A stretch of DNA of 64,000 bases from Acidobacteriota bacterium (GTDB lineage: Bacteria; Acidobacteriota; Thermoanaerobaculia; Thermoanaerobaculales; Thermoanaerobaculaceae): contig PKYI01000159.1 of NCBI GenBank assembly GCA_003133645.1, positions 11,381 to 75,380 on the forward strand, in the 5' to 3' direction. The notes below the pieces were generated by a model. The model ran no database searches. It was not told where the DNA came from and saw only the letters and a list, made by a program, of their open reading frames with translations. Position numbers and translations under genes: made by a program. Positions 10,787 through 41,166 of this stretch are shown one piece after another (within the stretch, counting starts at the first letter, position 1; each line of letters starts with the position of its first letter).

Positions 10787-10862
<76 letters not shown>

Positions 10863-11998: not shown

Positions 11999-12074
11999 GC
12001 GGGCATAACTCAGCTGGTAGAGTGTCAGCTTCCCAAGCTGAAAGTCGCGGGTTCAAATCCCGTTGCCCGCTCCA
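11999..12074 (+). tRNA. tRNA-Gly (anticodon CCC), CCA encoded
   Basis: GCGGGCATAACTCAGCTGGTAGAGTGTCAGCTTCCCAAGCTGAAAGTCGCGGGTTCAAATCCCGTTGCCCGCTCCA. Anticodon loop TTCCCAA, U73 discriminator, full cloverleaf. Confidence 0.95.
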
Positions 12075-27524: not shown

Positions 27525-29132
27525 TCAGTGCCACTCCCAGTCGATGAAGCCGGGCTTGGCGTCCACCATGCAGTTCACGATGAGCTCCACCAGCCCGCCG
27601 TACAGAATCCTGTTTTTGTTCCACAGGTCGTAGTACGCGAGCATGTCGCGGAACTGCCCCTTGCAGTTGCTGCACGGGGCGCAGATGTACTTGTTGATGG
27701 ACGGGTCCATGCAGTCGGCGAAGGCGTTGAGGACCTGTTCCATCTTCTTCCGGCCCGAGACGTGGAAACGCCAGTCCTGAAAGTTGTTGCCGCTCATGAT
27801 GGCAAAGCCCGAGCCGCCGCCGCAGCAGTAGTTGTCCACGCCGTGGGGCTCCATCTCCCGAAACTCGGGGCAGATCTTGCGGACGATCTCGCGCTGTGGC
27901 TCCACCACGCCCATGAGCCGGACCAGGTTGCAGGGGTCGTGGAGGGTGACGGGGAAGGCGTTCCGGCTGGGGTCGAGCGTGAGGCGGCCGTTCATGACGA
28001 TGTCCCGCAGGAGTGTCATCGAGCTTTCCCGGGGTATGTTCAGGTCGCCGGTGAGGACGCGGTCGGCGATGACGGAGAGGGCCTTGTGCGCGTGGCCGCA
28101 CTCGCCGAGCACGATCTTCTTCACGCCGAGCTTCTTGGCCGCCTGGGCGTGCTTGATGGCCACCCTGGCGAACTGGGCGTCGTCGTACCAGAGCCCGTAG
28201 TTGATCGAGTCGTAGCCCGCCAGCTCGGAGGAGAGGGTCCACTTGATGCCCGCGGCGCTCAGGACCAAGGCGAAGGCGCCGGGGTTCTCGGGCCACGCCA
28301 GGATCTCGCCCGCGTTGTGGATGAGAAGGACGTCGGCGCCCTCCACGTCCCACGGGGTCTCGACCTTGATGCCCGTTCTGTCCATCATGTCCTCGTCGAT
28401 GAACTCGATGTTGTCCTTCACAACGAGAGAACTCATACCCGTCGAGGACCCCACCTTGAGCTGAAGGACGGAGCCGTTGTCGTGGCACTCCTTGGCGTTG
28501 ATGCCAAGCTCCTGGCTGAAGAGCTTGCGGAGCTCGTGGGCCACCAGGCCGTTGTCCGCACCGATGGGACAGGTCTGGGCGCACCGCCGGCAAAGGTTGC
28601 ACCGGTAGGCCAGCTCGGCGAGGCGCGCGACCAGCGGCCAGTTGATCTCGATGTCGCCGTGCTGCCAGGCCGAGAGCGCGCCGCCGTGCTTGACGCTCTT
28701 GAAGTAGAGCCGGCGAACGAGCTCGGAACGGAAGGTCGGGCGGTAGAGCTCGTCGTTGCCGCTCGCCTCGAAGATGTGGCAGGCCTGGGAGCAGGTCTGG
28801 CACTTGGCGCAGTGCTCCATGGAGAGGACCAGCGGCTGCAGGAACGTCCAGTTGTTCTCCCTGGTGAAGAGCTTGTCCAGCCCCGCCAGGAACTTCCGCA
28901 CCAGCTCGTCCTCCTCCTCCTTGGTCTTGGGTTGGGGGATGTTGATGGCGCAGGTGTCGTCGAGCCCGCACTCCACCGAGCCGGTGACCTTCTCCGAGAG
29001 GATCGCCCAGGCGTGGTCTTTCTCGGGCGAGTCGAGAGGGTAGGGAAGCGGCATGAGGTCCTCGTTTTCGAGGTGCGTCAGGGGTTTTCTGTCCTGGCGG
29101 GACATGTCGGTGAGCTTGATCCTGTCCTTCAT
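27525..29132 (-). CDS. HdrD/DsrK-like (Fe-S)-binding protein with two 4Fe-4S ferredoxin motifs and two CCG domains
   Basis: ATG at 29132 (MKDRIKL) overlaps the upstream stop (ATGA). Cluster motifs CAKCQTCSQACH and CNLCRRCAQTCP. CCG motifs LGECGHAHK...HDPCNL and DNYCCGGGSGF...CAPCSNCKGQ. The upstream 287 codons of the track ORF are artefact. Confidence 0.8.
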   Translation of the reverse strand: MKDRIKLTDMSRQDRKPLTHLENEDLMPLPYPLDSPEKDHAWAILSEKVTGSVECGLDDTCAINIPQPKTKEEEDELVRKFLAGLDKLFTRENNWTFLQPLVLSMEHCAKCQTCSQACHIFEASGNDELYRPTFRSELVRRLYFKSVKHGGALSAWQHGDIEINWPLVARLAELAYRCNLCRRCAQTCPIGADNGLVAHELRKLFSQELGINAKECHDNGSVLQLKVGSSTGMSSLVVKDNIEFIDEDMMDRTGIKVETPWDVEGADVLLIHNAGEILAWPENPGAFALVLSAAGIKWTLSSELAGYDSINYGLWYDDAQFARVAIKHAQAAKKLGVKKIVLGECGHAHKALSVIADRVLTGDLNIPRESSMTLLRDIVMNGRLTLDPSRNAFPVTLHDPCNLVRLMGVVEPQREIVRKICPEFREMEPHGVDNYCCGGGSGFAIMSGNNFQDWRFHVSGRKKMEQVLNAFADCMDPSINKYICAPCSNCKGQFRDMLAYYDLWNKNRILYGGLVELIVNCMVDAKPGFIDWEWH

Positions 29133-30064
29133 TTCTTGGCCCCTTCCCAGGGGTTGGTGGTGGCGATGTCCGCCCAGGTCCTCTTGCCGTCGGCACCCAC
29201 GTGGGCCGCGGACCAGTTCGGCCTGTAGGTCAAGTACTCGGTGAGCTTCGCCTCGATGGCGCTGCCTCGGAGGTTGACCTGGTCGTTCCACCGCACGTCG
29301 TGGTAGGTGAAGTACTTGCCGACGAAGTGGGACATGTGTGTGAGGGGAATGTACGCGGCCAGGAGCGCGCAGAGCACGATGCCGGCCGCGAGCAGGCCGG
29401 GCACCTGGAGCGTCCGGTCGAAGGTCAGGAGCCCCTGGACCAGGGCCACCACGCTCGGGTCCCCGGGCGACCTCAGCAGGATCCCCGCCGTCAGGACGCC
29501 GAAGGCGACGAGGAAGAAGAGCAGGTTGAAGACGTCTCCCGCAGTGGTGTAGGTCTTCAGGTCCGCGTCGGTGAGCCGCCGGTGCAGGAGCCCCACCGCG
29601 CCGACCATGGCCAGCGCCATGCCCGCAACCCCGGACACCGTGTAGACCCATTGGAGGATGGTTCCCAGGGGTCCCGCCATGAGAGCAGGGGCCGCGAGGC
29701 CCGCGACCGCCGCGACAAACACGAGGCCGCACGTTCCCGCCAGAATGTAGAGCCCGAAGTGGAAGGGGAACGAGCGGTACCAGAGCTTGCGGTTGAACTC
29801 GCGGAGGGCCTTGAGGAAGAGCATCTCGGGGACCATGACCCGAAGCTCTCCCGCCAGGTTGTAGTGGCGCTTGCGGGTCCACCAGTCCTTGTCCTCGAAG
29901 TAGGACCCTCCGTGTTTCACCTTCTCGGGATCTTCGTGGGGCACCGGGTAGAGTTCCCAGCGCAGGTGGATAGGGGCCCGCGCGTACATCCACGCTCTGG
30001 CTGCGGTGGCCACGGCGAAGACCGCGGTGCCTGCGCCCAGTGCCAAGTACACGAGAACGCTCAT
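29129..30064 (-). CDS. NarI/DsrM/HdrE-like membrane cytochrome b subunit
   Basis: 311 aa with 5-6 TM helices. The N-terminal region WMYARAPIHLRWELYPVPHE and the operon partner (CCG protein) fit DsrM/HmeC-type quinone-interacting subunits. The family call rests on architecture plus context. Confidence 0.6.
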   Translation of the reverse strand: MSVLVYLALGAGTAVFAVATAARAWMYARAPIHLRWELYPVPHEDPEKVKHGGSYFEDKDWWTRKRHYNLAGELRVMVPEMLFLKALREFNRKLWYRSFPFHFGLYILAGTCGLVFVAAVAGLAAPALMAGPLGTILQWVYTVSGVAGMALAMVGAVGLLHRRLTDADLKTYTTAGDVFNLLFFLVAFGVLTAGILLRSPGDPSVVALVQGLLTFDRTLQVPGLLAAGIVLCALLAAYIPLTHMSHFVGKYFTYHDVRWNDQVNLRGSAIEAKLTEYLTYRPNWSAAHVGADGKRTWADIATTNPWEGAKK

Positions 30065-30346: not shown

Positions 30347-32422
30347 CTACGACGCACGCTTGAGGACCGTGCACACCGATGCGCAGATCGGTCCGCCGAT
30401 GTTGAACGTCGCGGCGACCTTGGCGTTCTTCACCTGCAGCTCGGGCGGGACCTTGCCGAGGAGTTGCCACGCCGACCAGCCGATCATCGCGACGCCGGTG
30501 GCGCCGATCGGGTGCCCCTTGGCGATCAGGCCGCCGGAGGTGTTGATGCCGCACTCGCCGCCAACGGCGGCCTTGCCGTCGACCCAGTACTGCGCGCCCT
30601 TGCCGACCGGCGCCTTGCCCAGCACCTCGGCCGCGATCGCGGCCATCACCGTGAAGCAGTCGTGGACCTCGGCGACGTTGACGTCGGCCTGGGTGGCCCC
30701 GGCCATCGCGTACGCCTTGCCCATCGCCGCGTAGGCGCCGGCCGGGCGGAGGACGTCGCGGCCCGCCTTCATGAGCGGGTCGGTGGCCTGGGCGTAGCCT
30801 GCGATCTCGACCACGTCGGCCTTGGCCACGCCCAGCCGCTTGAGGCCCTCCTCCGTGGCGACGATCATCGCGGCGTAGCCGTCGGTGATCTGCGAGCAGT
30901 CGTAGGTCTTCAACGGCAGCCCCTCGACGATGTAGCGGTTGATCCCCTCGATCTTCATCGCCTGCTCAAGGGTGGGTTGCACCTTCTGCATCTGCGCGTA
31001 CGGGTTGTACTTGGCGTTGCCGTACTCGTTGACGGCGATCTGCGCCAGCTGCGCCTCCGTGACGCCATAGGTTTTCATGTAGAGGTCCATGACCTCGGCG
31101 AACAGGTGCGGGAAGACGAACACCTTACCCGGCCGCTCGTCGGGGTGCGAGAAGTAGCCCAGCACCTCGCCGATGAGCTTGCCGTCCATCTTGCCGTCGT
31201 TGTCGCGCATCTTCTCGTAGCCGACCGCGATCCCGACCTCGCCGTCGCCGAGGAGGAGCTTGTGGATCACGGAGAGGATCGCCTGCCCGCCGGTGGCGCA
31301 GGCGTTCTCGACCGCCTCGATCGGCTTGGCGCCGAGACCAGGCACCATCGCCATCAGCCCGGAGAGCAGCCCCTGCTTGTTGAGGGAGACGTTGCAGACG
31401 GCGCCGACAGAGCCGACGTCGATGGCGGTGGGGTCGACCTTGATCTCGGCGCACACCTCCTTGACCGCGTTCGCGATGATGTCCGGCGTCTGCATGTCCA
31501 TGAGCTTGCCGAACTTCGACTGGTGGTAGGCGGCGATATAGACGGGTTTCCTCATGCTGTCCTCCCGGCGGATCGTTGCCGCGCCGATGCGCTCCGGCGT
31601 GCGGCCGACCCGCCCATCATAGCGCGACACCGAGGCAAGAAAATCGAGGCACGAGCGGATGAAACGCTCCGGCTGCTCGACCACGAGCACGTGGCCGCTG
31701 CCGTGGACGATCTCCAGGCAGGCGCCCGGGATCGCGGCCGCCAGGGCGCGCGCGCGGTCGAGCGGCATGACGAGGTCGGCGCCCGCCGCCAACACGAGGA
31801 CCGGGCAGGTGATCTTCCCGAGCACGGGCCGCAGGTCGATGTCCTCGATCGACGTGAGCAACTCGGCGGCCGCCGCGAACCACCACGGCGGCAGCAGCGC
31901 GATCTGAGCGGACCGGGCCGCCAGCTCGTCGCGATGCGCGGCGATGTACTCCGGTGAGTAGAAATACGGCACCAGGATCTCGCCCACGGACGCAGCGGCT
32001 CGACCGGCGGCGGCGTCGCGGCAGGCTCGCCCCAACTCCGCGCCGCCGTCGCGCATGAGTGGGGTGGCGACGTCCGTGGCGGTGGCGACCACCATTGAAG
32101 CGACCCTGGTGGGTTGGGTGGCGGCGAGGAGCAGGCCGACCTCGGCCCCGAACGAAGCTCCGATCACACGGGCGCGCTCGATCTCCAGGGCGTCGAGGAG
32201 CGCGATCACGTCGGCGACGTGCCCGTCGAGGGTCCGATGCGGCGGCTCGTGCGAGCGCAGCTGGCCGCGGAAGTCACAGCGAACGACCCGGTACCGTTCG
32301 ACGAACGGCTCGATGAACGGGTTCCACGACGAGATGCTCATCATCCCGCCGTTGAGCAGCAGCAGCGGCTCGCCGTCGCCGTCCAGCTGGTGCGCCAATA
32401 CGCCTGTCTGGTCCACGTTCAC
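30347..32422 (-). CDS. In-frame fusion: alpha/beta-hydrolase (N-terminal, ~290 aa) :: SCP-x/archaeal-type thiolase (C-terminal, 402 aa). The thiolase also has its own SD+ATG at 31555.
   Basis: Hydrolase: LLLLNGGMMSISSW, nucleophile elbow VIGASFGA, His HGSGHVLVVEQP. GTG at 32422 overlaps the ligase stop (GTGA). No stop codon occurs between ...FLASVSRYDGRVGRTPERIGAATIRREDS and MRKPVYIAAYHQSKFGK. Thiolase: ENACATGG (Cys), EVHDCF, NTSGGLIAKGHPIGATG. Confidence 0.7.
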   Translation of the reverse strand: MNVDQTGVLAHQLDGDGEPLLLLNGGMMSISSWNPFIEPFVERYRVVRCDFRGQLRSHEPPHRTLDGHVADVIALLDALEIERARVIGASFGAEVGLLLAATQPTRVASMVVATATDVATPLMRDGGAELGRACRDAAAGRAAASVGEILVPYFYSPEYIAAHRDELAARSAQIALLPPWWFAAAAELLTSIEDIDLRPVLGKITCPVLVLAAGADLVMPLDRARALAAAIPGACLEIVHGSGHVLVVEQPERFIRSCLDFLASVSRYDGRVGRTPERIGAATIRREDSMRKPVYIAAYHQSKFGKLMDMQTPDIIANAVKEVCAEIKVDPTAIDVGSVGAVCNVSLNKQGLLSGLMAMVPGLGAKPIEAVENACATGGQAILSVIHKLLLGDGEVGIAVGYEKMRDNDGKMDGKLIGEVLGYFSHPDERPGKVFVFPHLFAEVMDLYMKTYGVTEAQLAQIAVNEYGNAKYNPYAQMQKVQPTLEQAMKIEGINRYIVEGLPLKTYDCSQITDGYAAMIVATEEGLKRLGVAKADVVEIAGYAQATDPLMKAGRDVLRPAGAYAAMGKAYAMAGATQADVNVAEVHDCFTVMAAIAAEVLGKAPVGKGAQYWVDGKAAVGGECGINTSGGLIAKGHPIGATGVAMIGWSAWQLLGKVPPELQVKNAKVAATFNIGGPICASVCTVLKRAS

Positions 32423-33984
32423 CCCTTGCCTTCTCCCGGCGTCGTGTGCCCCGTGCCCTGCAGGCGAGAGTAACGCGCCTGCAGCTCCCCCTTGACCACC
32501 TTGCCGTAGGCCGTTCGGGGAAGGGCGTCCGTCGAAATGAACTCTCTCGGGATCTTGTACTTCGCCATGCGGGCTTCGAGAAAGTCCGCCAGCTCGAAGG
32601 CGCTCGGTCCAGGCTCGGCGCGCGGCACCACGAACGCGACCCCGACCTCGCCCCACGTCGGGTGGGGGACCCCGATCACCGCCGCATCCTTGACCCCCGG
32701 GTGGAGCAACAACTCGCCTTCGATCTCGGCCGGGTAGACATTGACGCCGCCCGAGATGAACATGTCCTTTCTCCGGCCTGCGATGGTGAAGAACCCGTCC
32801 TCGTCGCGTCGCGCCAGGTCCCCGGTGTGGAACCAGCCATCGGGGTCGAGAGCGGCGGCGGTGGCCTCCGCGTTGTTCCAGTACCCGGTGCAGACGTGGG
32901 GTCCTCTCAGGAGGAGCTCACCAACCTCGCCGACAGGAGTCTCGCCCCCCTCGGCATCGACCAGGTTGGCTTGGGTGAACATCAGGGGACGCCCGATCGA
33001 CCCCTTCTTCCGCACCGAGTCCTCGTTCGACATGGCGAAGCAGTTGACCCCCACCTCGGTGAGGCCGTACCCCTGGCGAAAGACGACCCCGCGTTTCTGG
33101 AACGCCTCGATAATGTAGAGAGGCAGCGGCGCACCGCCCGAGGCCAGCCATCGCACGTGCGAGAGGTCAACGGAGGCGAACTCGGGCGTCTCCATCAGCA
33201 GTTTCCAGATGGTGGGGACGCCGAGGACGACGGTGCAACGTTCACTCTCAACGATGCGGCAGATCTCGTTGGGATCGAAGCCGGCGTGCAACACGATCGT
33301 CCCGCCGATGGCGAAGATCGGCAGAAGAAAGGCGCCCAGCCCGCCGGCGTGGTACAGGGGGGTGAAGACCGGCGAGACGTCCTCTTCGCGGAGCTGCCAT
33401 GAGATCGCTGTGTTGTAGGCGTTCCACGCGATCATCCGATGGGGGAGCATGACCCCCTTGGGCTTGCCGGTCGTGCCGCTGGTGTAGAGGAGGCAGTAGG
33501 TGTCCTCGGGTGAGACCGGGGTCCGGGGTCCGGGGTCCGGGGTCCGTACGACCAGATCGGGATACCTGAGATCCCATGGCTCGACGGGGCCGTCGAGGGC
33601 GACCCAGTGGTCGAGCTCAACCATCCCCCTGAGCTCGCGGACCACGGGGGCGAACGCACCGTCGTAGACGAGCGCGCGCATGCCGGAATCGCGCACCATG
33701 AAGGCGAGCTCGTGCGCGGTCAGGCGGGTGCCGAGCGGCACGATGACGACGCCGCTCTTGCCGGCGGCGAAGAAGTTGTCCAGGAACTCGACCCGGTTGT
33801 GAGCGAGGAGGCCGATGCGCTCGCCTTTGGTCAGGCCGAGCCGATTCCGCCAGGCGACGGCGCAAGCAGCCGCGCGGGCGTCGAGCTGGCCGTAGGTGAA
33901 GCGTTCGCCGGTCGGGACGAAGACCAGCGCGATCTTCTCCGGCGTCAACCTCGCGCGCTCGCCGAGGACGTCACCGTGCAACAT
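32419..33984 (-). CDS. AMP-dependent acyl-CoA synthetase/ligase (ANL superfamily)
   Basis: AMP-binding core LLYTSGTTGKPKGV, plus YGLTE, GWFHTGDLARRDEDGFFTIAGRRKDMFISGGVNVYPAEIE and C-terminal PRTAYGKV. Confidence 0.9.
   Translation of the reverse strand: MLHGDVLGERARLTPEKIALVFVPTGERFTYGQLDARAAACAVAWRNRLGLTKGERIGLLAHNRVEFLDNFFAAGKSGVVIVPLGTRLTAHELAFMVRDSGMRALVYDGAFAPVVRELRGMVELDHWVALDGPVEPWDLRYPDLVVRTPDPGPRTPVSPEDTYCLLYTSGTTGKPKGVMLPHRMIAWNAYNTAISWQLREEDVSPVFTPLYHAGGLGAFLLPIFAIGGTIVLHAGFDPNEICRIVESERCTVVLGVPTIWKLLMETPEFASVDLSHVRWLASGGAPLPLYIIEAFQKRGVVFRQGYGLTEVGVNCFAMSNEDSVRKKGSIGRPLMFTQANLVDAEGGETPVGEVGELLLRGPHVCTGYWNNAEATAAALDPDGWFHTGDLARRDEDGFFTIAGRRKDMFISGGVNVYPAEIEGELLLHPGVKDAAVIGVPHPTWGEVGVAFVVPRAEPGPSAFELADFLEARMAKYKIPREFISTDALPRTAYGKVVKGELQARYSRLQGTGHTTPGEGKG
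33517..33546. repeat. Heptanucleotide tandem repeat (CGGGGTC)x4 inside the ligase CDS; the plus (template) strand is a [G4N3]4 quadruplex motif
   Basis: cggggtc x4 read directly. It encodes RTPDPGPRTP just upstream of the YTSGTTGKPKG motif. Confidence 0.9.
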
Positions 33985-34075: not shown

Positions 34076-34155
34076 GTGGAGGATCGATCGCCTGGCGTAG
34101 CCGGTTGTAGAGGCGGGGCTTGTCCCCGCCCGGCAGTGGGCGGCCACACGGCACC

Positions 34156-35070
34156 TCATGGTGCGGCCTCCAGGGCCGTGCGCAGCGCGGCGAGAAAGCG
34201 GTCGGGGCACTCGATCTGCGGGACGTGGCCGCAACGTTCGAGCGTGACCAGGCCCGCATGCGGAAGCTGCACCTTCATGCGCTCGGCGTAGTCGAGTGGG
34301 ACAAGCCGGTCGGAGGCGCCCCAGATGAGCTGCACCGGCGCGCGCAGCTCGCGGAGTTGCGTCTCGTCAAGCACGTAGGAATCCATCGTGGCCGCACTCG
34401 CGGCGAAACGGGCCAGGGGACCTTCGCGTGCCTGGCGCACGATGTCGTCGAGCACAAAGTCGGGTACCGGCGGGCTCGTGCGGTCGCGCGTTTGCTCGAC
34501 CGACTCCCGCGCCTCGCCCCGGTTCTGGGGCAGCACGCGCGCGCGCAGGTTGCTCCCCCGGATCGCGCCGCCGTCGACGCAGATGGCCATCGCGACGCGA
34601 TCCGGGTGGCGCTGGGCGACCAGCATCGCGATCCAGGCGCCGAGCGAGTTGCCGACGAGGACGACCTTCTGTCCCGGGGCGACCACATCGAGGACGGCCT
34701 CAACGCCCCCGAGGACGTCCGCGACGTCGATCGGCCCGCGCCGCGGGGCGCTGTCGCCGTGGCCGGCGAGGTCGGGGACGATGAGTCGGTGCGACCCGAT
34801 CAGCTCCGGCACGACCTTGAACCAAGTGCCGGCGTTGTCGCCGGCTCCGTGCAGGAGAACGACGACGGGACCCCGACCGCCGACGAATACGGTCTGGTCC
34901 CCGGCAGGGGCGGGAACGTGCACTTTCCGCAGCCCCGCCGTGCGCAGCGCGGCTCGCGTCTGCCAGGCGAAGACGGTAAGCGGCCGGTACCTGACCATCC
35001 ACCCGACCCAAACCGCCGCTCCCCCGACGATGGCGAGGATGACGACAAGCACGATGCCGCGGATGCTCAT
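34156..35070 (-). CDS. Membrane-anchored alpha/beta-hydrolase
   Basis: N-terminal TM helix IVLVVILAIVGGAAVWVGWMV. Motifs: HGAGDNAGTW, nucleophile elbow VGNSLGAW, catalytic His CGHVPQIE. Confidence 0.85.
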   Translation of the reverse strand: MSIRGIVLVVILAIVGGAAVWVGWMVRYRPLTVFAWQTRAALRTAGLRKVHVPAPAGDQTVFVGGRGPVVVLLHGAGDNAGTWFKVVPELIGSHRLIVPDLAGHGDSAPRRGPIDVADVLGGVEAVLDVVAPGQKVVLVGNSLGAWIAMLVAQRHPDRVAMAICVDGGAIRGSNLRARVLPQNRGEARESVEQTRDRTSPPVPDFVLDDIVRQAREGPLARFAASAATMDSYVLDETQLRELRAPVQLIWGASDRLVPLDYAERMKVQLPHAGLVTLERCGHVPQIECPDRFLAALRTALEAAP

Positions 35071-35107
35071 GACTCTCCTTCGCTGCGTCCTACGCCCCGG
35101 GCCCTGG

Positions 35108-35180
35108 ATTCCCGCTTTCGCGGGAATGACGGCGTGGCCGTTTCGTTCTCTCGCCGGTCCCCGGTCCCCGGTCCCCGGTC
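35108..35180. repeat. REP-like hairpin (35108-35127) followed by heptamer repeat (CGGTCCC)x3.7 (35155-35180)
   Basis: ctggATTCCCGCTTTCGCGGGAATgac; cggtccc cggtccc cggtccc cggtc, ending 1 nt before the stop codon of the upstream KAS III gene. The minus (sense) strand is G4-rich. Confidence 0.9.
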
Positions 35181-35181
35181 A

Positions 35182-36177
35182 TCACGGCATTCTGAACGCC
35201 GCCCCCGCCTGGTTGTACCCCACGCCCGAACCGATCATCACGACCAGGTCGTTGGAACGGATCTTACCCTTCGCGATGGCGTCGTCGAGCGCCATCGGGA
35301 TGCAGGCGGAGCCGGTGTAGCCCCACCGCTCCATGATCGTGTGGGTCTTTTCCATCGGCAAGCCGAGGTCGGCCATGACCAGCTCGATCGAGGGCTTGCG
35401 CACCTGGGTGAAGATGATGAAGTCGATCGCCGAAACCGGAAAGCCGCCTTCCTTGGCGACGCGCCGGGCCAACCGCGGCCACCCCTCGTGGTTGATCTCC
35501 GGCGGGTAGCGGTCGAGGATCTTCACGGTGGTGCGGCCCGCGTTGACCGACTCGACCGTCGCCGGCTCGAAGGTGCCGCCCGAGTAGATCCCCCAGTGCC
35601 GGTGGTACTCGCCGCCGGCCTGCGACGCGGAGGAAACGAAACCCGGCGTTTCGCGTGGTTCCAGCACGGCCGCGCCGGCGCCGTCGCCGTAGAAGAAGAT
35701 CATCGGGTCGTTGGGGTCAGTGAGCTTGTGCATCATGTAGACGCCGACCACCAGCACGACATTGAGACCCGAGTTGGTGGTGATCATGCCGGCGCCGATC
35801 GCGAGCCCGGTCGGAAACGAGGCGCACGCGCAGCCGACGTCGAAGGTGCCGGCGTTCTTCGCCCCGAGCTTGTGCTGTAGCACGACCGAGGTCGCTGGGG
35901 TGATGTAGTCGGGGGAGTCGGTGCCGAGGATGATGAGATCGACGTCCTCGGGCTTCCGCCCGGCGCGTTCGAGCGCCTGCCGCGCGGCCGGCAGCGCGAT
36001 ATCGGAGGTCGCCCAGTCTTCGGGCGCCCACCAACGGCTCCGGATTCCACTCGACGCCTCCATCTTGTCCACGAACTCCGGTACTGCGGTATCGAAACGC
36101 GCCCGCAGGTCGTCGTTGGTCACCTCGCGTTCGGGCAGGTAGTGCCCGGTTGCCACGATGTTGGCGATTCTGGCCAT
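35182..36177 (-). CDS. KAS III (FabH)-like condensing-enzyme paralog 2 with non-canonical His/Asn positions
   Basis: MARIANIVATGHYLPEREVTN..., active-site Cys context FDVGCACASF. FIIFTQVRKPS stands where FabH has PHQAN, and WGYTGSACIP where FabH has GNTSAAS. ATG at 36177 is preceded by CGAGGTG. Confidence 0.8.
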   Translation of the reverse strand: MARIANIVATGHYLPEREVTNDDLRARFDTAVPEFVDKMEASSGIRSRWWAPEDWATSDIALPAARQALERAGRKPEDVDLIILGTDSPDYITPATSVVLQHKLGAKNAGTFDVGCACASFPTGLAIGAGMITTNSGLNVVLVVGVYMMHKLTDPNDPMIFFYGDGAGAAVLEPRETPGFVSSASQAGGEYHRHWGIYSGGTFEPATVESVNAGRTTVKILDRYPPEINHEGWPRLARRVAKEGGFPVSAIDFIIFTQVRKPSIELVMADLGLPMEKTHTIMERWGYTGSACIPMALDDAIAKGKIRSNDLVVMIGSGVGYNQAGAAFRMP

Positions 36178-36386
36178 GATCACCTCGGTTCCCTGGGTGA
36201 AGGGTCAAACGTCAAAGGTAAGGGGACGGGAAAGGCCGAGATCGCGGGATGCAGAGCGCGGCCCGGTACGTTGGCCGCGGGGTCCGCGTCTCTCCGTCGT
36301 CGGTTTCACATTTCCCCTTCTTATCTTTCACTCTCTTATTTCCAGAACGATCCCACCGTTCAGCGAGCTCACCGCCGCCCCCTTTG

Positions 36387-37382
36387 CTACGACATCCGGA
36401 ACGCCGCCCCCGCAAGGTTGTAGCCCACTCCAGAGGCGATGAACACGGCCAGGTCGCCACGATGGAGCTTGCCTCGCTCGCGAGCATCGTCGAGCGCCAT
36501 CGGGATGCAGGCGGACCCGGTGTAGCCCCACCTCTCCATGATCGTGTGGGTCTTCTCCATCGGCAACCCGAGGTCGTTCATCACCAGCTCGATCGAAGGC
36601 TTGCGCACCTGCGTGAAGATGATGAGATCGATATCTTCGACGGCGAAGCCGCCCTCCTTAGCGACCCGCTTGGTCAGTCGCGGCCACGCCTCGTGGTTGA
36701 GCTCCGGCGGGTAGCGGACGAGGATCTTGGTCGTGGTGCGGCCCGCCTTGACCGATTCCACGGTGGCGGGCTCGAACGTGCCCCCCGAGTAGATCCCCGA
36801 GTGACGGTGGTACTCTCCGCCGGCCTCGCTGACCGAGGAGATGAAACCGGGCGCGTCCCTGGGCTCGAGGACCGCCGCGCCGGCCCCGTCACCATAAAGG
36901 AAGATCATTGGTTCGTTCGGGTCGGTCAGCTTGTGCATCATGTAGGCACCGACCACCAGGACAACGTTGAGACCTGGGTTGGTGGCGATCATGCCGGCGC
37001 CGATCGCGAGCCCGGTCGGAAACGAGGCGCACGCGCAGCCGACGTCGAAGGTGCCGGCGTTCTTCGCCCCGAGCTTGTGCTGCAGTACAACCGAGGTCGC
37101 TGGGGTGATGTAATCGGGGGAGTCGGTGCCGAGGATGATGAGGTCCACCTCTTCGGGCTTCCGCCCGGCGCGTTCGAGCGCCTGGCGCGCGGCCGGCAGC
37201 GCGACATCCGAAGTCGCCCAATCGTCGGGCGCCCACCAACGGCTCTTGATTCCGGTCGAAGCCTCCATCTTGTCGACGAACTCCGGCACCGCGGCGTCGA
37301 AACGCGCCCGCAGCTCGTCGTTGGTCACCTCGCGTTCAGGCAGGTAGTGCCCGGTTGCCACGATGTTGGCGTATCGGGTCAT
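36387..37382 (-). CDS. KAS III (FabH)-like condensing-enzyme paralog 1 (tandem duplicate of 35182..36177)
   Basis: ATG at 37382 (MTRYANIVATGHYLPEREVTN) follows GAGGGA. Roughly 85-90% amino-acid identity to paralog 2 by eye, with long identical nucleotide runs (for example 36990-37085 versus 35785-35880). Same FTQVRKPS / WGYTGSAC motifs. Confidence 0.8.
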   Translation of the reverse strand: MTRYANIVATGHYLPEREVTNDELRARFDAAVPEFVDKMEASTGIKSRWWAPDDWATSDVALPAARQALERAGRKPEEVDLIILGTDSPDYITPATSVVLQHKLGAKNAGTFDVGCACASFPTGLAIGAGMIATNPGLNVVLVVGAYMMHKLTDPNEPMIFLYGDGAGAAVLEPRDAPGFISSVSEAGGEYHRHSGIYSGGTFEPATVESVKAGRTTTKILVRYPPELNHEAWPRLTKRVAKEGGFAVEDIDLIIFTQVRKPSIELVMNDLGLPMEKTHTIMERWGYTGSACIPMALDDARERGKLHRGDLAVFIASGVGYNLAGAAFRMS

Positions 37383-37460
37383 GTCGTTCCCTCTCCCTCT
37401 TTCGCGGGGCGGGCGCCCTCGCCCGCCCACCTCGGCCCGGCCGAGGGCGGCTGATTGGCC

Positions 37461-38249
37461 TCACGTCCCGAGGACGAGGCCGCCGTCCACCGAGATCACC
37501 GCGCCGTGGACGAACGACGCCGCATCGGACGCGAGCCAGACGTATGCGTTGGCGATGTCCTCGGGCTTGCCCATCCTCCCCATCGGGGTGTGGGCCACCA
37601 TGTTGTCGATGACCTTCTCGGGCATGGCGGAGAGGATCTCGGTGGCGATGAACCCGGGCGCCACAGCATTGACCCTGATTTTGAACTTCCCGAGCTCCCG
37701 TGCCCACGTCCTCGTCATCGTGATCAGACCGCCCTTGGTCGCGGCGTAGTTGGTCTGCCCGAAGTTGCCGTACAGGCCGACGACGGATGACGCCGACAGC
37801 ACCACGCCGCCCCCGCCCGCGATCATGTGCGGGACCGCGGCGCGGGTGCACAGGAACACGCCTTTCAGATTCACGTTGATGACCGCGTCCCACGCCTCGT
37901 CGGTCATGGTGGAGACGACGGCTCCGTCCTTGACCTTGACGAGCTGAGCGTCGCGCACGATCCCGGCGTTGTTGACCAGCACGTCGATCCGGCCCCAGCG
38001 GGCGATCACGGCGGCCACTGCTTCGGCAACCGCCGCGCCGTCGGCGACGTTGACCTTGGCGAACATCGCCTCGCCGCTCGCGGCTTCCAGCTCCAGGACG
38101 AGTTCCCCGGCCTTGCCGTCGCTCACGTCCCACGCGGCGATCCTCGCCCCTTCCTGCGCGAACCGGAGCGCGGTGGCGCGGCCGATGCCGGCTGCCGCCC
38201 CGGTCACGATGACAACCTTCCCGTTCAGTCCCGTCTCGATGGACACCAC
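37461..38249 (-). CDS. Classical SDR oxidoreductase, 3-oxoacyl reductase (FabG)-like
   Basis: TGAAAGIG Rossmann motif, NNAG, catalytic S...YAATK. 262 aa. Confidence 0.85.
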   Translation of the reverse strand: MVSIETGLNGKVVIVTGAAAGIGRATALRFAQEGARIAAWDVSDGKAGELVLELEAASGEAMFAKVNVADGAAVAEAVAAVIARWGRIDVLVNNAGIVRDAQLVKVKDGAVVSTMTDEAWDAVINVNLKGVFLCTRAAVPHMIAGGGGVVLSASSVVGLYGNFGQTNYAATKGGLITMTRTWARELGKFKIRVNAVAPGFIATEILSAMPEKVIDNMVAHTPMGRMGKPEDIANAYVWLASDAASFVHGAVISVDGGLVLGT

Positions 38250-38301
38250 AGACCTCCCTTGTGCCTCATTGGGCCTTGCCTACGTTGTCTCCCGGCTTCT
38301 T

Positions 38302-38358: not shown

Positions 38359-41166
38359 CTAGAACGACCACCTCAAGCCGAGCTGGACCTCCCGAGCCGG
38401 AAGCGTCGCGCTGTACTTGCCGAACAGCGGGTTGGGCACGTACGCGGCCTTCGGGTTCGCGATCGTCGGGCCGGAAAGATACTGGCCGCAGTTCATCGAG
38501 TTGACGTCGTAGTTGACGGTGTTGAAGAGGTTGAACGCCTCCGCGATGATCTCGAGCCGCCCAGCCGAGTGCATGGCGAGCGTCTTGGTGAGCCGCAGCG
38601 AAACGTTGCGGTAGACCGGGCCGTCCTGAGCGTTGCGCGCGACGCCCGGGGGCCGGTCGGAGTTGTACCCGTCGCCGTTGTAGTCGTATCCCAACCGTTC
38701 GGTCCAGGGCTGGCCCGAGCCGTACTCGAGGATCGGCGCGGCGGTCAGGCCCCACCCCAGGTTGAACACGCCGGACACCACGAGGTGGTAGCGCTCGTCG
38801 GACTGGCTGCGTCCCCACTCGCCCTCGGGGTTCCCCGGGTCGTTGGGGTAGCCGGCGGTGTACACCGGACTGAAGTCATCGGAGAGGTTCTTCTTGTCGG
38901 CGAGGGTCAGTGACGCGGTGATCAGGTGGCCCCCCTTGAGCGTCCCGTTGAGGCTGAGCACCAGCGCCTTGTACTCCGAGTGGCCGTCGTTGGTGTAGGT
39001 GGCCATGTTCGTGTAGGCGGGGTTGATGCGCGAGTGGGTGGCGTTGCCCGTCCAGTTGGTGTCCGTCACGAAGATCTCGTCGTGGCCCTTGACGTAGACC
39101 GCTTCGGTGTCGAAGAACAGCCCGCTGCCCAGCCGCGTCGTCCAGCCGAGGGTGGCCTGGTCCGCGTACGGGTTCTTGTAGTCCTGGGCCAGCATCGTGA
39201 TCGAAGGCGCCAGCATGATCCCGGTGGTCGTCAGATTGTTGGGATCCAGCCAGGTCGACGGCGGCAAGCCAAAGAGGATGCCGCTGACCCTCGTGTAGAG
39301 CTTGCGCCCGGTGAAGCCGTTCTGCTCGAGCTCGGCGAACGCCGGGACCAGCAGGAAGCGGCCGACGAAGCGGCCGACGCCGCCGCGGATCAGGTTCTGC
39401 CCATCGCCGGCAACGTCCCAGGAGAAGCCGAGGCGCGGCTGGTAGTTGTTGGTGTCACGCTTGCGGCCGTTGGGGACGAGCGGGGAGCGGAAATCGGGGT
39501 TGTTGCCGTTCGTGTCGAGGTCCCAGCGCAGCCCGTAGTTGAAGGTGAAGTTCGACGCCGCCCGCCAGTCGTCCTGGATGAACAGGCCGATGAGGTCGGT
39601 ACTGATCTTGGCGTCCGCGGAACCGACGCCGTACAGGTACTCGATCGGGAGGGCGCGCGTGTCGTTGAGGTAGACGATCGTGCCGTGCGAGAAGGTGGGG
39701 ATGTCCGACTCGTCCTTCACGTGCTGGAACGAAATGCCCATCTTCCACTCGTGCTTGTCGCCGTAGAGATGGGCGGTGTCCCGGATCTCCCACTGCGTGC
39801 CTTCGCCGAGGATGTCACCGGTGGTGTTGGTGCCGGTCTTCAGCGTGTTCCCCACGGAGAACCACTCCTCCGGAGCGATAGAGTTGGTGGGCTCGTCGTA
39901 CTTGCGGCCGCCCACCTGCAGGTAGAGCTCGTTGAGGTAGTTGGAACTCGGGGCGAGGGTGTGTTCGATGGTGAGGTTCCAGTTGTCGCGGTTGAGCTGG
40001 TTCCCCCACGATTGGTCGGAAACCCCTCCGACGTGGAAGTTGTCCTCGCGGTAGCGCTCGTAGGTGAACTTGGCGGCCAGTCGCTGGCTGTCCGACACCG
40101 AGTGGTCGATGCTGCCGAACAACATCGTCTGGTTCCACGGGTGAGGGATGTCCGCCGCCTCCGAGGCGAATGCGCCGCCCGGCCGGAACGCCAATGGGAC
40201 GTCGTCCGTCTTGACGTACTCGGTCGACAGGAAGAAGTGGGTCTTGTCCTTGACGATCGGTCCGCCGAGCGTGAATCCGTACTGGCCGCGGTCGTACTTG
40301 TTGCACCCCGAGTTGGCGCCGCACGGCAAGTCCAGCGCTCCCTTGGCGCGCAGGTTATCGGCCCGGTAGTAGGCGAAGACCGTCCCCATGAGATCGTTGG
40401 TTCCCGAGCGCGTCACGACGGAGAGCGCACCGCCCGCGGAGCCGCCGATCTCGGTGTCGAACCGGTTGGTGATCACGCGGAACTCGGCGATCGCATCTTG
40501 GGAGAACTGCACCCGGGCGAGGCCGAGAGCGGGGTCGGTGAAGTCCACGCCGTCCACCATGATCGTGGCTTGCGAGGCGTTGCCCCCGGCGCCGATCACC
40601 GGGTCGCCGCTGATGAAACGGTAGCCGCCGCGCTCGCGCTCGACGCCGGGGGCGATGAACGCCAGTTTCTGGAAGTCGCGGTCGGGCACCGGCAGCGACT
40701 GGATCTGCTGCGGGATGATGTTGGTCGAGGAGTCGGTCTTCACCACATCGACGAGCGGGACCTCGCCCGTGACCGTCACGGCCTCTTCCTTGGTCTTGGC
40801 CTGCTGCATCACGGCGTTGACCCGCAGCGTCTGGCCGACCCGCAGCTCGAGGCTCTCCTCGGCGACCGGCGCGAACCCGTCGAGGTCGAGGCGGATCGCG
40901 TACGTGCCGGGCGGCAGCGCGACAAAGCGCACGATGCCTGCGGCGTCGGTCGGCAGCGTCCGTTCCAGGCCGGTGGCGGGGTTCGTGAGCTTCACCGTCA
41001 CGCCGGGCAACGGCAGCTTGCCGGTGTCCGCGACCCGAAGCTCGATCTGCGCGTTGCTGACCTGCGCGACGGCCGGCCCCGCAAGGAGCAGGCCGATCAG
41101 GCAGGCGGCCGCGACCGCGGCGGCTCGCCGCGGCCAGGCGTGGTTGGGAAGGGTTCGCATCACCAT
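38359..41166 (-). CDS. TonB-dependent outer-membrane receptor with N-terminal CarboxypepD_reg-like domain
   Basis: ATG at 41166 follows AGGAGGAGA. Signal peptide ...LLLAGPAVAQ. CarboxypepD_reg: VTVKLTNPATGLERTLPTDAAGIVRFVALPPGTYAIRL. Plug, long beta-barrel and terminal ...LGLRWSF. Confidence 0.85.
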   Translation of the reverse strand: MVMRTLPNHAWPRRAAAVAAACLIGLLLAGPAVAQVSNAQIELRVADTGKLPLPGVTVKLTNPATGLERTLPTDAAGIVRFVALPPGTYAIRLDLDGFAPVAEESLELRVGQTLRVNAVMQQAKTKEEAVTVTGEVPLVDVVKTDSSTNIIPQQIQSLPVPDRDFQKLAFIAPGVERERGGYRFISGDPVIGAGGNASQATIMVDGVDFTDPALGLARVQFSQDAIAEFRVITNRFDTEIGGSAGGALSVVTRSGTNDLMGTVFAYYRADNLRAKGALDLPCGANSGCNKYDRGQYGFTLGGPIVKDKTHFFLSTEYVKTDDVPLAFRPGGAFASEAADIPHPWNQTMLFGSIDHSVSDSQRLAAKFTYERYREDNFHVGGVSDQSWGNQLNRDNWNLTIEHTLAPSSNYLNELYLQVGGRKYDEPTNSIAPEEWFSVGNTLKTGTNTTGDILGEGTQWEIRDTAHLYGDKHEWKMGISFQHVKDESDIPTFSHGTIVYLNDTRALPIEYLYGVGSADAKISTDLIGLFIQDDWRAASNFTFNYGLRWDLDTNGNNPDFRSPLVPNGRKRDTNNYQPRLGFSWDVAGDGQNLIRGGVGRFVGRFLLVPAFAELEQNGFTGRKLYTRVSGILFGLPPSTWLDPNNLTTTGIMLAPSITMLAQDYKNPYADQATLGWTTRLGSGLFFDTEAVYVKGHDEIFVTDTNWTGNATHSRINPAYTNMATYTNDGHSEYKALVLSLNGTLKGGHLITASLTLADKKNLSDDFSPVYTAGYPNDPGNPEGEWGRSQSDERYHLVVSGVFNLGWGLTAAPILEYGSGQPWTERLGYDYNGDGYNSDRPPGVARNAQDGPVYRNVSLRLTKTLAMHSAGRLEIIAEAFNLFNTVNYDVNSMNCGQYLSGPTIANPKAAYVPNPLFGKYSATLPAREVQLGLRWSF

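What the first reader, a model, noticed from the sequence alone, without database searches (positions are those of the whole stretch)
35182..37382. Tandemly duplicated KAS III paralogs that keep the Cys but appear to lack the canonical His and Asn
Both paralogs keep the nucleophile context (FDVGCACASF, versus FabH AAACAGF). Aligned by eye to E. coli FabH, the PHQAN motif reads FTQVRKPS (His replaced by Thr). The GNTSAAS motif reads GYTGSAC (Asn replaced by Tyr).

A Cys-only thiolase-fold enzyme would not perform the decarboxylative step of FabH. It may instead act as an acyltransferase, a non-decarboxylative condenser, or a structural subunit.

The two copies share roughly 85-90% amino-acid identity and long identical nucleotide runs, which implies a recent duplication or ongoing gene conversion.
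Basis: partly seen in the sequence, partly recalled or inferred. Interest (0 to 1): 0.62.

Follow-up and report, generated by a model that had tools for sequence, protein, structure and literature searches.

The report
Remodelled KAS III paralogs, not FabH
Two neighbouring genes annotated as fatty-acid synthesis starters (FabH) belong to a large, unstudied enzyme clade found in many bacterial phyla and some archaea, which keeps the catalytic cysteine but has replaced the rest of the FabH active site and sits in a conserved ester/organic-acid utilisation operon, so it probably does different chemistry.

Summary
Two minus-strand genes (35182-36177 and 36387-37382, 331 aa each, 87% identical) have the KAS III fold and the nucleophilic Cys118. 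FabH His244 is Thr257 and Asn274 is Tyr287. This is not decay. Cys-Thr-Tyr defines a monophyletic clade found in at least 599 species genomes across many bacterial phyla and in archaea. It also carries a near-invariant Asp at the position of the HMG-CoA synthase catalytic Glu, and it lacks FabH's CoA- and ACP-binding residues. No conserved His exists anywhere in the clade, and no curated NCBIfam model accepts the two window copies or five of six other members scanned. Across phyla the gene sits next to an NAD(H)-type FabG-like reductase, an acyl-CoA ligase (sometimes replaced by a CoA-transferase), alpha/beta hydrolases and importers. My best reading (about 0.37) is an ACP-independent, non-decarboxylative thiolase-type step on 3-ketoacyl-CoA in an ester or hydroxy-acid salvage pathway. 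An acyltransferase role is the main rival. The duplication is old, being shared with a related genome, and is under purifying selection (dN/dS 0.18). A 96-nt tract over the Cys region is homogenised by gene conversion. I rate it a new variant of a known kind, with function untested.

The parts
35182..36177 (-). KAS III-fold paralog A (331 aa, MARIANIV...), the copy most like the single-copy orthologs in related genomes
   Evidence: ORF; Pfam domains; it is 88% nt identical to the downstream copy in L004 and 84-85% to single-copy orthologs.
36387..37382 (-). KAS III-fold paralog B (331 aa, MTRYANIV...), the more diverged copy, with 7 lineage-specific substitutions at sites invariant in the other 19 aligned close homologs (V146A, F162L, A184V, W195S, I/V228L, G316A, Q323L)
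   Evidence: it is 93% nt identical to the upstream copy in L004.
35824..35826 (-). Cys118 codon of A, the nucleophile (equivalent to FabH Cys112). In B it is at 37029-37031.
35407..35409 (-). Thr257 codon of A, at the FabH His244 position. In B it is at 36612-36614.
   Evidence: Thr in 20 of 20 clade representatives against His in 64 of 64 canonical ones.
35317..35319 (-). Tyr287 codon of A, at the FabH Asn274 position. In B it is at 36522-36524.
35917..35919 (-). Asp87 codon of A. It replaces FabH Thr81 and aligns with the HMG-CoA synthase catalytic Glu79. In B it is at 37122-37124.
   Evidence: Asp in 95% of the clade and 0% of canonical FabH representatives; hhalign block LIILGTD / MVIVATE; codons checked.
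35782..35877 (-). 96-nt tract of A (nt 301-396, LQHKLGAKNAGTFDVGCACASFPTGLAIGAGM) identical to 36987-37082 in B; a gene-conversion tract.
   Evidence: Within this tract the paralogs are 100% identical inside each of two genomes but only 96% between genomes. Metagenome contigs break at these places.
36178..36386 (-). 209-nt spacer between B and A, 92% conserved with the spacer in L004
   Evidence: A metatranscriptome contig (35950-36516) spans it.
37461..38249 (-). FabG-like classical SDR immediately upstream. It has TGAAAGIG and an Asp after beta2 (AAWDVSD), which indicates NAD(H) preference.
   Evidence: best solved relative 4nbw, E 2e-92; also the MFE-2 (3R)-hydroxyacyl-CoA dehydrogenase 2et6. 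The cofactor rule comes from PMC11467476 citing Javidpour 2014. The SDR lies beside the KAS gene across phyla.
34156..35070 (-). Alpha/beta hydrolase 1 with a hydrophobic N-terminal stretch (probable membrane anchor) and a GNSLG serine box; PlaF-like
   Evidence: (best solved relative 6i8w).
32419..33984 (-). Acyl-CoA ligase (AMP-binding; FadD13 / fatty-acyl / feruloyl-CoA synthetase-like)
31556..32422 (-). Alpha/beta hydrolase 2 (esterase / enol-lactonase-like). Its start overlaps the ligase stop codon.
30347..31555 (-). SCP2-type thiolase with HDCF and GHP motifs
38359..41166 (-). TonB-dependent outer-membrane receptor heading the operon
   Evidence: ORF. Orthologs carry CarboxypepD_reg and TonB_dep_Rec_b-barrel domains. 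In several genomes it ends about 5 nt before the KAS gene.

Best explanation
Both genes encode members of an uncharacterised, monophyletic clade of KAS III-fold enzymes. Its catalytic positions read Asp87-Cys118-Thr257-Tyr287. FabH reads x-Cys-His-Asn and HMG-CoA synthase reads Glu-Cys-His-Asn at those positions. They are not FabH.

Most likely they carry out an ACP-independent, non-decarboxylative thiolase-type reaction: Claisen condensation, or its reverse, thiolysis of a 3-ketoacyl-CoA. Proposed mechanism (all inferred):
- Cys118 carries the acyl group.
- Asp87 acts as general base or acid for the alpha-carbon.
- The Thr257 and Tyr287 hydroxyls replace the His/Asn oxyanion hole.

The enzyme works with the adjacent NAD(H)-type 3-ketoacyl reductase/dehydrogenase, on acids that the neighbouring ligase (or, in other lineages, a CoA-transferase) has made into CoA thioesters. 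In this Acidobacteriota operon the substrates are probably esters or hydroxy acids, taken in through the TonB-dependent receptor and freed by the two alpha/beta hydrolases.

The tandem pair comes from an old duplication. Both copies are under purifying selection, and the Cys region is repeatedly homogenised by gene conversion. Copy B has pocket-proximal changes that suggest a split in substrate range or an A/B heterodimer.

Shown here: fold, residue replacements, clade, synteny, conversion, and presence in a metatranscriptome. Inferred: every statement about chemistry and substrates.
For: Residues:
- Cys kept, His to Thr and Asn to Tyr in 20 of 20 clade representatives, against 64 of 64 canonical His/Asn.
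- Asp at the HMGS Glu79 position in 95% of the clade and 0% of canonical FabH.
- FabH Trp32, Arg151, Gly209, Phe213 and Arg249 are each conserved in most of the 64 canonical representatives (aromatic at 213; Arg249 in 45 of 64) and not in the clade. From memory of the FabH literature, these are its CoA- and ACP-binding residues.
- No conserved His anywhere in 18 diverse members.

Clade:
- Recovered in 198 of 200 NJ bootstraps with the diagnostic columns removed.
- Found in at least 599 species genomes over many phyla.
- Also found in Thorarchaeota and Thermofilum, archaea that to my knowledge have no ACP-based fatty-acid synthase.

Context across phyla:
- The SDR lies directly upstream and the acid-activating enzyme downstream.
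- The ligase is replaced by a CoA-transferase in Chloroflexota ZRK35 and a Thermoanaerobacter MAG; a similar-length family (cluster 7) beside the KAS gene in 9 loci, including Alphaproteobacteria, was not annotated. The partner's job is therefore CoA activation.
- No acyl-CoA dehydrogenase or enoyl reductase appears among the recurrent neighbours, and an SCP2 thiolase is within 3 genes in only 28 of 147 loci. The KAS-fold protein is therefore usually the only C-C enzyme in the module.
- The SDR is of NAD(H) type, and its relatives include the MFE-2 (3R)-hydroxyacyl-CoA dehydrogenase.
- Importers, TetR regulators and lipases or esterases recur.

Expression: soil metatranscriptome contigs cover the operon.
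Against: - No member has been assayed.
- The FabH CoA-binding residues are lost, so CoA binding itself is only assumed.
- In the window and many Acidobacteriota, an apparently competent SCP2 thiolase lies in the same operon, which makes a second thiolase-type enzyme look redundant.
- KAS III-like enzymes lacking the canonical Asn are acyltransferases (ChlB3; CerJ and DpsC from memory).
- The lid region 188-230, which holds the conserved Asn229, is modelled at pLDDT below 50, and I had no coordinates to measure distances.
- RNA contigs may contain DNA.
Confidence: 0.37

Rival explanations
1. The enzyme is an acyltransferase. Cys118 is acylated from the acyl-CoA made by the ligase, and the acyl group passes to a hydroxyl, amine or thiol acceptor. 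Alternatively it works in reverse, moving an acyl group from an ester to CoA. Asp87 would activate the acceptor. No C-C bond is made or broken.
For: The residues needed for decarboxylation are lost. ChlB3 is a KAS III-like acyltransferase; CerJ and DpsC, recalled from memory, lack the canonical Asn. A conserved acidic residue lies near the Cys. Esterases and lipases sit in the same clusters.
Against: The known examples keep His, and from memory they sit in polyketide clusters with carrier proteins; neither holds here. This reading does not explain the very tight, cross-phylum pairing with a 3-ketoacyl reductase/dehydrogenase.
Confidence: 0.22
2. The enzyme is still a decarboxylating KAS III. 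It would condense acyl-CoA from the ligase with malonyl-CoA or malonyl-ACP, using the Thr and Tyr hydroxyls as an alternative oxyanion hole, and so feed scavenged acids into fatty-acid synthesis together with the FabG-like reductase.
For: FabH structures are the closest fold and sequence matches. A FabG-like gene is adjacent. The co-variation of a small Thr with a large Tyr could preserve two hydrogen-bond donors (inference).
Against: His244 and Asn274 are universally kept in the 64 canonical representatives, and from established FabH enzymology they are required for decarboxylation. The Arg at FabH position 249 (which I recall as the ACP-docking residue) and the aromatic residue at FabH position 213 are lost. 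The clade occurs in archaea that, to my knowledge, have no ACP-based fatty-acid synthase. The SDR is of NAD(H) type. No malonyl-supplying gene is among the recurrent neighbours. All FabH models fall below cutoff for both window copies and for five of six other members scanned.
Confidence: 0.13
3. This is an Ole-like head-to-head pathway. The KAS-fold enzyme would act like OleA, the SDR like OleD, the ligase like OleC (beta-lactone synthetase) and the hydrolase like OleB, making 2-alkyl-3-hydroxy acids, beta-lactones or olefins.
For: The same four protein families co-occur. A general base near the Cys would fit non-decarboxylative condensation. Tandem KAS III paralogs recall the LstAB and NltAB heterodimers (from memory).
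Against: The ligase is replaced by a CoA-transferase in other lineages, which cannot do OleC chemistry. The ligase groups with CoA ligases such as FadD13. OleA structures are much weaker matches than FabH (E 1e-17 against 1e-42). From memory, OleA keeps His and Asn. The SDR is a classical FabG type. Importers and TetR regulators point towards catabolism.
Confidence: 0.08
4. The protein is a non-catalytic scaffold or regulatory subunit of a thiolase complex, like the inactive HMGS-like subunits of PhlACB-type HMGS/ACAT/DUF35 complexes.
For: An SCP2-type thiolase is in the operon. A thiolase plus a DUF35 protein follow the KAS gene in Chloroflexota ZRK35. There is precedent in PMC12960953.
Against: The Cys and at least five other pocket residues are invariant or nearly so in alignments spanning sequences only about 30% identical, and dN/dS is 0.18. 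The inactive HMGS-like subunits have lost their tetrad, Cys included. A thiolase is absent from about 80% of loci. No DUF35 gene is seen in the acidobacterial operons.
Confidence: 0.06

Closest known systems
FabH / KAS III (beta-ketoacyl-ACP synthase III, e.g. E. coli FabH 1HN9, N. meningitidis 4RYB)
   Same: The fold is the same (Foldseek TM 0.82-0.88), as are the ACP_syn_III N- and C-terminal domains, the nucleophilic Cys in the same helix-start context, the FGDGAGA motif and the overall length.
   Different: His244 is Thr and Asn274 is Tyr. Thr81 is Asp, Ala216 is Asn and Ser279 is Cys. The FabH residues I recall as CoA-binding (Trp32, Arg151, Gly209, Phe213) and ACP-docking (Arg249) are not conserved. 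The lid is longer. All curated FabH models fall below cutoff for both window copies. There is no fabD/acpP/fabF context, and the clade occurs in archaea.
HMG-CoA synthase (E-C-H-N tetrad; S. aureus MvaS 1XPK)
   Same: An acidic residue sits at the catalytic Glu position and the Cys is aligned. It is a CoA-dependent, ACP-independent thiolase-fold enzyme that uses the acyl-Cys as a carbon nucleophile (the tetrad is described in PMC12960953).
   Different: The relationship is distant (hhalign E 5e-10; HMGS models 53-56 bits against cutoffs of 244 and above). The His and Asn of the tetrad are absent, and Asp stands in place of Glu.
KAS III-like acyltransferases (ChlB3, CerJ, DpsC)
   Same: They have the KAS III fold, depart from the canonical Cys-His-Asn triad, and use acyl-CoA or carrier-protein donors without decarboxylation (ChlB3: PMC9573744; the others from memory).
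   Different: Those enzymes keep His, usually with Asp, and sit in polyketide gene clusters. Here His is absent, and the context is an SDR, a ligase, hydrolases and an importer.
OleA and the LstAB / NltAB head-to-head condensing enzymes
   Same: They have the KAS III fold, carry out non-decarboxylative Claisen chemistry with a carboxylate general base, have partner genes from the SDR, AMP-ligase and alpha/beta-hydrolase families, and sometimes occur as tandem paralogs forming heterodimers (from memory).
   Different: From memory, OleA keeps His and Asn. It is a far weaker sequence match. The ligase here is a CoA ligase that a CoA-transferase can replace.
Archaeal ketothiolase/DUF35/ketoacyl-CoA reductase fatty-acid synthase complex and HMGS/ACAT/DUF35 complexes
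   Same: These are ACP-independent, CoA-based systems in which a thiolase-superfamily enzyme is physically and genetically coupled to an SDR ketoacyl-CoA reductase. An SCP2-type thiolase lies in the same operon here, and a DUF35 gene is present in one relative (bioRxiv 10.1101/2024.07.05.601840; PMC12960953).
   Different: The condensing enzyme in those systems is an SCP2/ACAT-type thiolase, not a KAS III-fold protein. DUF35 is missing from the window operon, and no complex has been shown here.

Membership tests
FabH / KAS III (EC 2.3.1.180) | Thiolase fold with ACP_syn_III and ACP_syn_III_C domains | tested here: met
   Pfam E 1e-14 to 1e-23; Foldseek TM 0.82-0.88 to FabH structures.
FabH / KAS III (EC 2.3.1.180) | Cys-His-Asn catalytic triad (C112/H244/N274) | tested here: not met
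   Cys is present, but His is Thr257 and Asn is Tyr287 in both copies. No conserved His exists in the clade.
FabH / KAS III (EC 2.3.1.180) | Score above the curated family cutoffs (TIGR00747, NF006829) | tested here: not met
   172-176 bits against a cutoff of 292, and 199-203 against 249. Five of six other clade members also fall below.
FabH / KAS III (EC 2.3.1.180) | CoA adenine clamp (W32, R151) and ACP-docking Arg249 (roles recalled from the FabH literature) | tested here: not met
   These residues are W in 59 of 64, R in 55 of 64 and R in 45 of 64 canonical representatives, and variable in the clade. The alignment near residues 28-36 and 207-214 contains indels, so exact equivalences there are less certain.
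FabH / KAS III (EC 2.3.1.180) | Decarboxylative condensation of acyl-CoA with malonyl-ACP | not testable with these tools
   This needs an enzyme assay.
OleA-type head-to-head condensing enzymes | Cys-His-Asn plus a Glu base supplied by the partner subunit, with OleBCD partners including a beta-lactone synthetase | tested here: not met
   His and Asn are absent. OleA structures match only at E 1e-17. The ligase is CoA-ligase-like and can be replaced by a CoA-transferase.
KAS III-like acyltransferases (CerJ / DpsC / ChlB3) | Cys or Ser nucleophile with a retained His (and Asp), in a polyketide cluster with a carrier protein | tested here: not met
   There is no His, and no PKS or carrier-protein genes in the neighbourhoods. 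The activity itself was not tested.
HMG-CoA synthase | Glu-Cys-His-Asn tetrad | tested here: not met
   Asp87 aligns with Glu79 and Cys118 with Cys111, but His and Asn are not kept. HMGS models score 53-56 bits against a cutoff of 244.
HMGS-like / ACAT / DUF35 complexes (PhlACB type) | Co-located SCP2/ACAT-type thiolase and DUF35 protein | tested here: inconclusive
   A thiolase with HDCF and GHP motifs is present in the operon. No DUF35 gene is seen in the orthologous operons. Both are present next to the clade member in Chloroflexota ZRK35.
Unnamed Asp-Cys-Thr-Tyr clade of KAS III-fold proteins (defined here) | D87, C118, T257, Y287 and C292 (motifs TD[ST]PD, FTQ, GYTGSAC) plus N229 | tested here: met
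   Both copies carry all of these residues. The clade is monophyletic without these columns.
Unnamed Asp-Cys-Thr-Tyr clade of KAS III-fold proteins (defined here) | Adjacency to a FabG-like NAD(H) SDR and an acid-activating enzyme | tested here: met
   The window order is SDR, B, A, hydrolase, ligase. The same arrangement is seen across phyla.

The most novel reading that the evidence does not exclude
The Asp-Cys-Thr-Tyr clade may be a previously unrecognised catalytic solution within the thiolase superfamily. It would be an ACP-independent KAS III-fold enzyme making or breaking C-C bonds without His, Asn or decarboxylation, shared by Asgard and TACK archaea and more than a dozen bacterial phyla. 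It could be a missing ketoacyl-CoA synthase/thiolase of a minimal three-gene module (activate, oxidise or reduce at C3, cleave or condense). Alternatively it could be a thioester-conserving enzyme that moves acyl groups from esters such as hydroxyalkanoate oligomers directly to CoA.
Probability: 0.25. Interest if true: 0.85.

Novelty: new variant of a known kind. Interest (0 to 1): 0.64.

Why it matters
Members of this clade in databases are named 'ketoacyl-ACP synthase III' or 'FabH' (at least 599 species genomes carry the motif), which credits them with fatty-acid initiation. If the clade does different chemistry, those annotations are wrong, and so are the metabolic reconstructions of soil and peat Acidobacteriota, Chloroflexota and some archaea that rest on them.

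The clade also offers an untested active-site design for thiolase-fold enzymes, with Asp, Thr and Tyr in place of His and Asn. That bears on how C-C bond chemistry evolves in this superfamily and on ACP-independent acyl metabolism in archaea. Finally, the conserved module of importer, esterase, ligase, SDR and KAS looks like a widespread carbon-salvage pathway in soils that has not been described.

Tried and rejected
1. Decayed FabH or pseudo-enzyme. Rejected. The replacements are invariant across a deep clade, and dN/dS between the copies is 0.18.
2. His or Asn supplied from elsewhere. There is no conserved His. The only conserved Asn (N229) lies in the poorly modelled lid, so its role is open.
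3. Cys292 as a thiolase-like second catalytic Cys. Set aside. Chalcone synthases carry the same GN..SAC arrangement without a catalytic role (from memory), and I had no coordinates to measure distances.
4. Ole-like pathway. Downgraded because a CoA-transferase can replace the ligase.
5. Membership of PRK06840. Rejected (146-206 bits in all clade members scanned, against a cutoff of 315). A true PRK06840 protein (C-H-H type, 444 bits) does sit beside a clade member in one Rhodocyclaceae genome.
6. A Biopython NJ bootstrap timed out, so I redid it in numpy.
7. The Javidpour 2014 paper on NADH-dependent FabG (source of 4NBW, from memory) was not held.
8. A search for Thermofilum loci in the genome collection did not return Thermofilum itself.
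9. Literature searches for a characterised member found nothing.
10. Rfam and promoter/terminator scans showed nothing special in or between the two genes.
Full report
**What is there**

Two ORFs lie head-to-tail on the minus strand. Copy A runs 35182-36183 from a GTG. The ATG at 36177, preceded by GAGGTG, is the likely start, giving 331 aa. Copy B runs 36387-37382 from the ATG of MTRYANIV, also 331 aa.

Both carry the Pfam domains ACP_syn_III and ACP_syn_III_C. They are 87% identical in protein and 85.5% in DNA with no gaps. The AF2 model of A has mean pLDDT 80, falling below 50 only for residues 188-230. It superposes on FabH, BioZ and PqsD structures with TM 0.8-0.88.

**The residue claim holds**

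HMMER alignments to solved FabH chains agree with a MAFFT alignment that includes E. coli FabH, whose C112, H244 and N274 I checked in the script:
- The second Cys of FDVGCACASF (Cys118) is the nucleophile.
- Thr257 of FTQVRK occupies the His244 position.
- Tyr287 of GYTGSAC occupies the Asn274 position.

The first Cys of 'CAC' is conserved only among close relatives. I verified the codons in both copies.

**This is a clade, not decay**

In a search of 1.84 billion cluster representatives, nearly every full-length hit down to about 33-44% identity reads Cys-Thr-Tyr (one close relative reads C-N-Y). Beyond about 36% identity the hits are almost all canonical Cys-His-Asn, apart from the most divergent Cys-Thr-Tyr member (P0187, 31%).

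An NJ analysis with the diagnostic columns removed recovers the group in 198 of 200 bootstraps. The recovered group adds one C-N-Y variant and one broken sequence, and leaves out the most divergent member.

A second scan with other clade motifs hit the same limit. Carriers include:
- all classes of Acidobacteriota;
- Chloroflexota, Gemmatimonadota, Myxococcota, Elusimicrobia, Bacteroidota, Ignavibacteria, Bdellovibrionota and Thermotogae;
- Firmicutes, and Alpha-, Beta- and Gammaproteobacteria;
- a Thorarchaeota MAG and cultured Thermofilum species.

**The whole pocket is rebuilt**

I compared 20 clade representatives with 64 canonical ones.

| FabH position | Clade residue | Share of clade |
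|---|---|---|
| H244 | T | 100% |
| N274 | Y | 100% |
| S279 | C | 100% |
| T81 | D | 95% |
| A216 | N | 95% |
| S276 | G | 95% |
| V212 | P | 90% |
| L220 | W | 90% |
| F304 | S | 85% |

From my recollection of FabH structures and inhibitor-docking work, these positions line the active-site tunnel.

The following residues are conserved in the canonical set and not in the clade. Their roles are recalled from the FabH literature:
- CoA adenine clamp: W32 (59/64) and R151 (55/64).
- Pantetheine-tunnel residues: G209 (61/64) and an aromatic residue at 213 (57/64).
- ACP docking: R249 (45/64).

Among 18 diverse members there is no invariant His at all. The only conserved Asn is N229, in the poorly modelled lid.

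A profile comparison with S. aureus HMG-CoA synthase aligns LIILGTD87 with MVIVATE79 in a confident, ungapped block. The clade therefore has an acidic residue where HMGS has its catalytic base. The HMGS E-C-H-N tetrad is described in PMC12960953.

For both window copies and five of six other clade members scanned, no NCBIfam model reaches its cutoff; one divergent member (P0187) passes the generic NF006829 subfamily model. Sources name these proteins generically as KAS III.

**Context**

In the window the minus-strand order is:
1. TonB-dependent receptor
2. FabG-like SDR
3. Copy B
4. Copy A
5. Alpha/beta hydrolase 1, with a hydrophobic N-terminus
6. Acyl-CoA ligase
7. Alpha/beta hydrolase 2
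8. SCP2-type thiolase

The same operon, usually with one KAS copy, recurs throughout Acidobacteriota. In several genomes the receptor ends about 5 nt before the KAS gene.

In other phyla the constant neighbours are an SDR 50-65% identical to the window's, directly upstream, and a ligase directly downstream. Alpha/beta hydrolases, TetR regulators and a transporter are frequent; the transporter is a TonB receptor, a sodium:solute symporter or a Liv-type ABC system.

Other variants are informative:
- In Chloroflexota ZRK35 and a Thermoanaerobacter MAG, a CoA-transferase replaces the ligase. A similar-length family (cluster 7) lies beside the KAS gene in 9 loci, including Alphaproteobacteria, but I did not annotate it.
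- ZRK35 also has a thiolase plus DUF35.
- The Thermoanaerobacter MAG has what reads, by eye, like a secreted lipase.
- One Rhodocyclaceae locus reads ligase, double MaoC, PRK06840-type KAS, clade KAS.
- Acyl-CoA dehydrogenases and enoyl reductases are not among the recurrent neighbours.

**The partners**

- *SDR.* Its closest solved relative is 4nbw (E 2e-92), and it also resembles the MFE-2 (3R)-hydroxyacyl-CoA dehydrogenase. It has TGAAAGIG and an Asp after beta2. By the rule quoted from Javidpour 2014 in PMC11467476, these mark NADH rather than NADPH use.
- *Ligase.* It groups with fatty-acyl and feruloyl-CoA synthetases and with FadD13.
- *Hydrolase 1.* It resembles the alpha/beta hydrolase 6i8w, which I recall as the membrane phospholipase PlaF.
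- *Hydrolase 2.* It resembles metagenomic esterases and enol-lactonases.
- *Thiolase.* It has the HDCF and GHP motifs of active SCP2-type thiolases.

**Inference on function**

The evidence bearing on chemistry is:
- Loss of His and Asn, which established FabH enzymology says are required for malonyl decarboxylation.
- Loss of the FabH residues I recall as binding ACP and CoA.
- Presence in archaea that, to my knowledge, have no ACP-based fatty-acid synthase.
- A carboxylate at the HMGS base position.
- Near-obligatory pairing with a 3-keto/3-hydroxy oxidoreductase and an acid-to-CoA activating enzyme.

Together these point best to ACP-independent, non-decarboxylative thiolase-type chemistry on a 3-ketoacyl-CoA. 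Importers, esterases, TetR regulators and the NAD(H)-type SDR lean towards the catabolic direction: ester, then acid, then acyl-CoA, then 3-keto, then cleavage. In most loci the KAS-fold protein is the only C-C enzyme of the module.

This is inference, and I give it about 0.37. Acyl transfer is the main rival. It fits precedent for triad-deficient KAS III-like enzymes, but it leaves the SDR pairing unexplained. The FabH-like, Ole-like and scaffold readings each conflict with at least one observation; see the rival explanations.

**The duplication**

Copy B is 93% identical in DNA to the upstream copy in the related genome L004. Copy A is 88% identical to the downstream copy there. A and B are 86% identical to each other. 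The duplication therefore predates the split of the two genomes. Other Thermoanaerobaculales contigs also carry both types (B-type markers in P0039 and P0043).

dN/dS between the copies is 0.18. Copy B has fixed seven changes at sites invariant in the other 19 aligned close homologs: V146A, F162L, A184V, W195S, I/V228L, G316A and Q323L.

Nucleotides 301-396, which encode the Cys region, are identical between A and B. The same tract is also identical between the two L004 copies, yet it differs by 4% between the genomes. Independent homogenisation in each lineage is the signature of ongoing gene conversion.

Tandem or paired KAS-fold genes also occur in other lineages. That keeps an A/B heterodimer possible.

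**Expression and source**

A peat metagenome holds the stretch with zero differences. A soil metatranscriptome has contigs over the whole operon, including one across the B-A spacer. DNA carry-over cannot be excluded.

**Verdict**

The finding is a new variant of a known kind, widespread and likely mis-annotated, with its function still to be assayed.

Noticed in passing
window 30347-32656 (-): Alpha/beta hydrolase 2 and the SCP2-type thiolase are in one uninterrupted reading frame (769 aa ORF). The related genome L004 has a stop codon between them in the same frame. This is either a hydrolase-thiolase fusion or a read-through with an internal start (GGGAGGACAGC ATG).
   Followed up: partly
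L168 4370-6583; also L033, L044, L088, L112, L126, L134, L160: A second KAS-fold family (NCBIfam PRK06840, 444 bits) lies directly beside the Cys-Thr-Tyr gene in a Rhodocyclaceae MAG, after a ligase and a double MaoC hotdog protein; by eye its triad positions read Cys-His-His. Weaker KAS-like hits (22-27% identity) lie near clade members in several other loci. These may be heteromeric KAS pairs.
   Followed up: partly
window 12870-13046 (+); 10790-10862 (-); 11999-12071 (+): A 6S RNA (50 bits, above the gathering score) and two tRNA genes.
   Followed up: no
window 27525-29993 (-) and 29129-30064 (-): Just downstream of the operon lies a large ORF whose C-terminal half has Cys-rich motifs (CAKCQTCSQAC, CNLCRRCAQTC, CCGGG) that recall HdrD/DsrK-type Fe-S proteins. 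Next to it is a 311-aa ORF that looks like a polytopic membrane protein. I saw these only in the ORF listing.
   Followed up: no
window 34100-38300: A peat metagenome run holds this stretch with no differences, and about 20 other peat and soil metagenomes hold 69-90% of its sampled words. The organism is a common peat and soil Acidobacteriota (Thermoanaerobaculales-like) lineage.
   Followed up: partly
L092 2521-13062 (Thorarchaeota MAG): An Asgard archaeon carries the arrangement ABC transporter, hydrolase, Cys-Thr-Tyr KAS, ligase, hydrolase, substrate-binding protein in one direction. This is the clearest ACP-free context for the clade.
   Followed up: partly
P0148 and P0187 (representatives): P0148 reads Cys-Asn-Tyr and groups with the clade. 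P0187 reads Cys-Thr-Tyr but falls outside it in the NJ tree and is the only member that passes a FabH subfamily cutoff (259.5 against 249). These could be intermediates or convergence.
   Followed up: no
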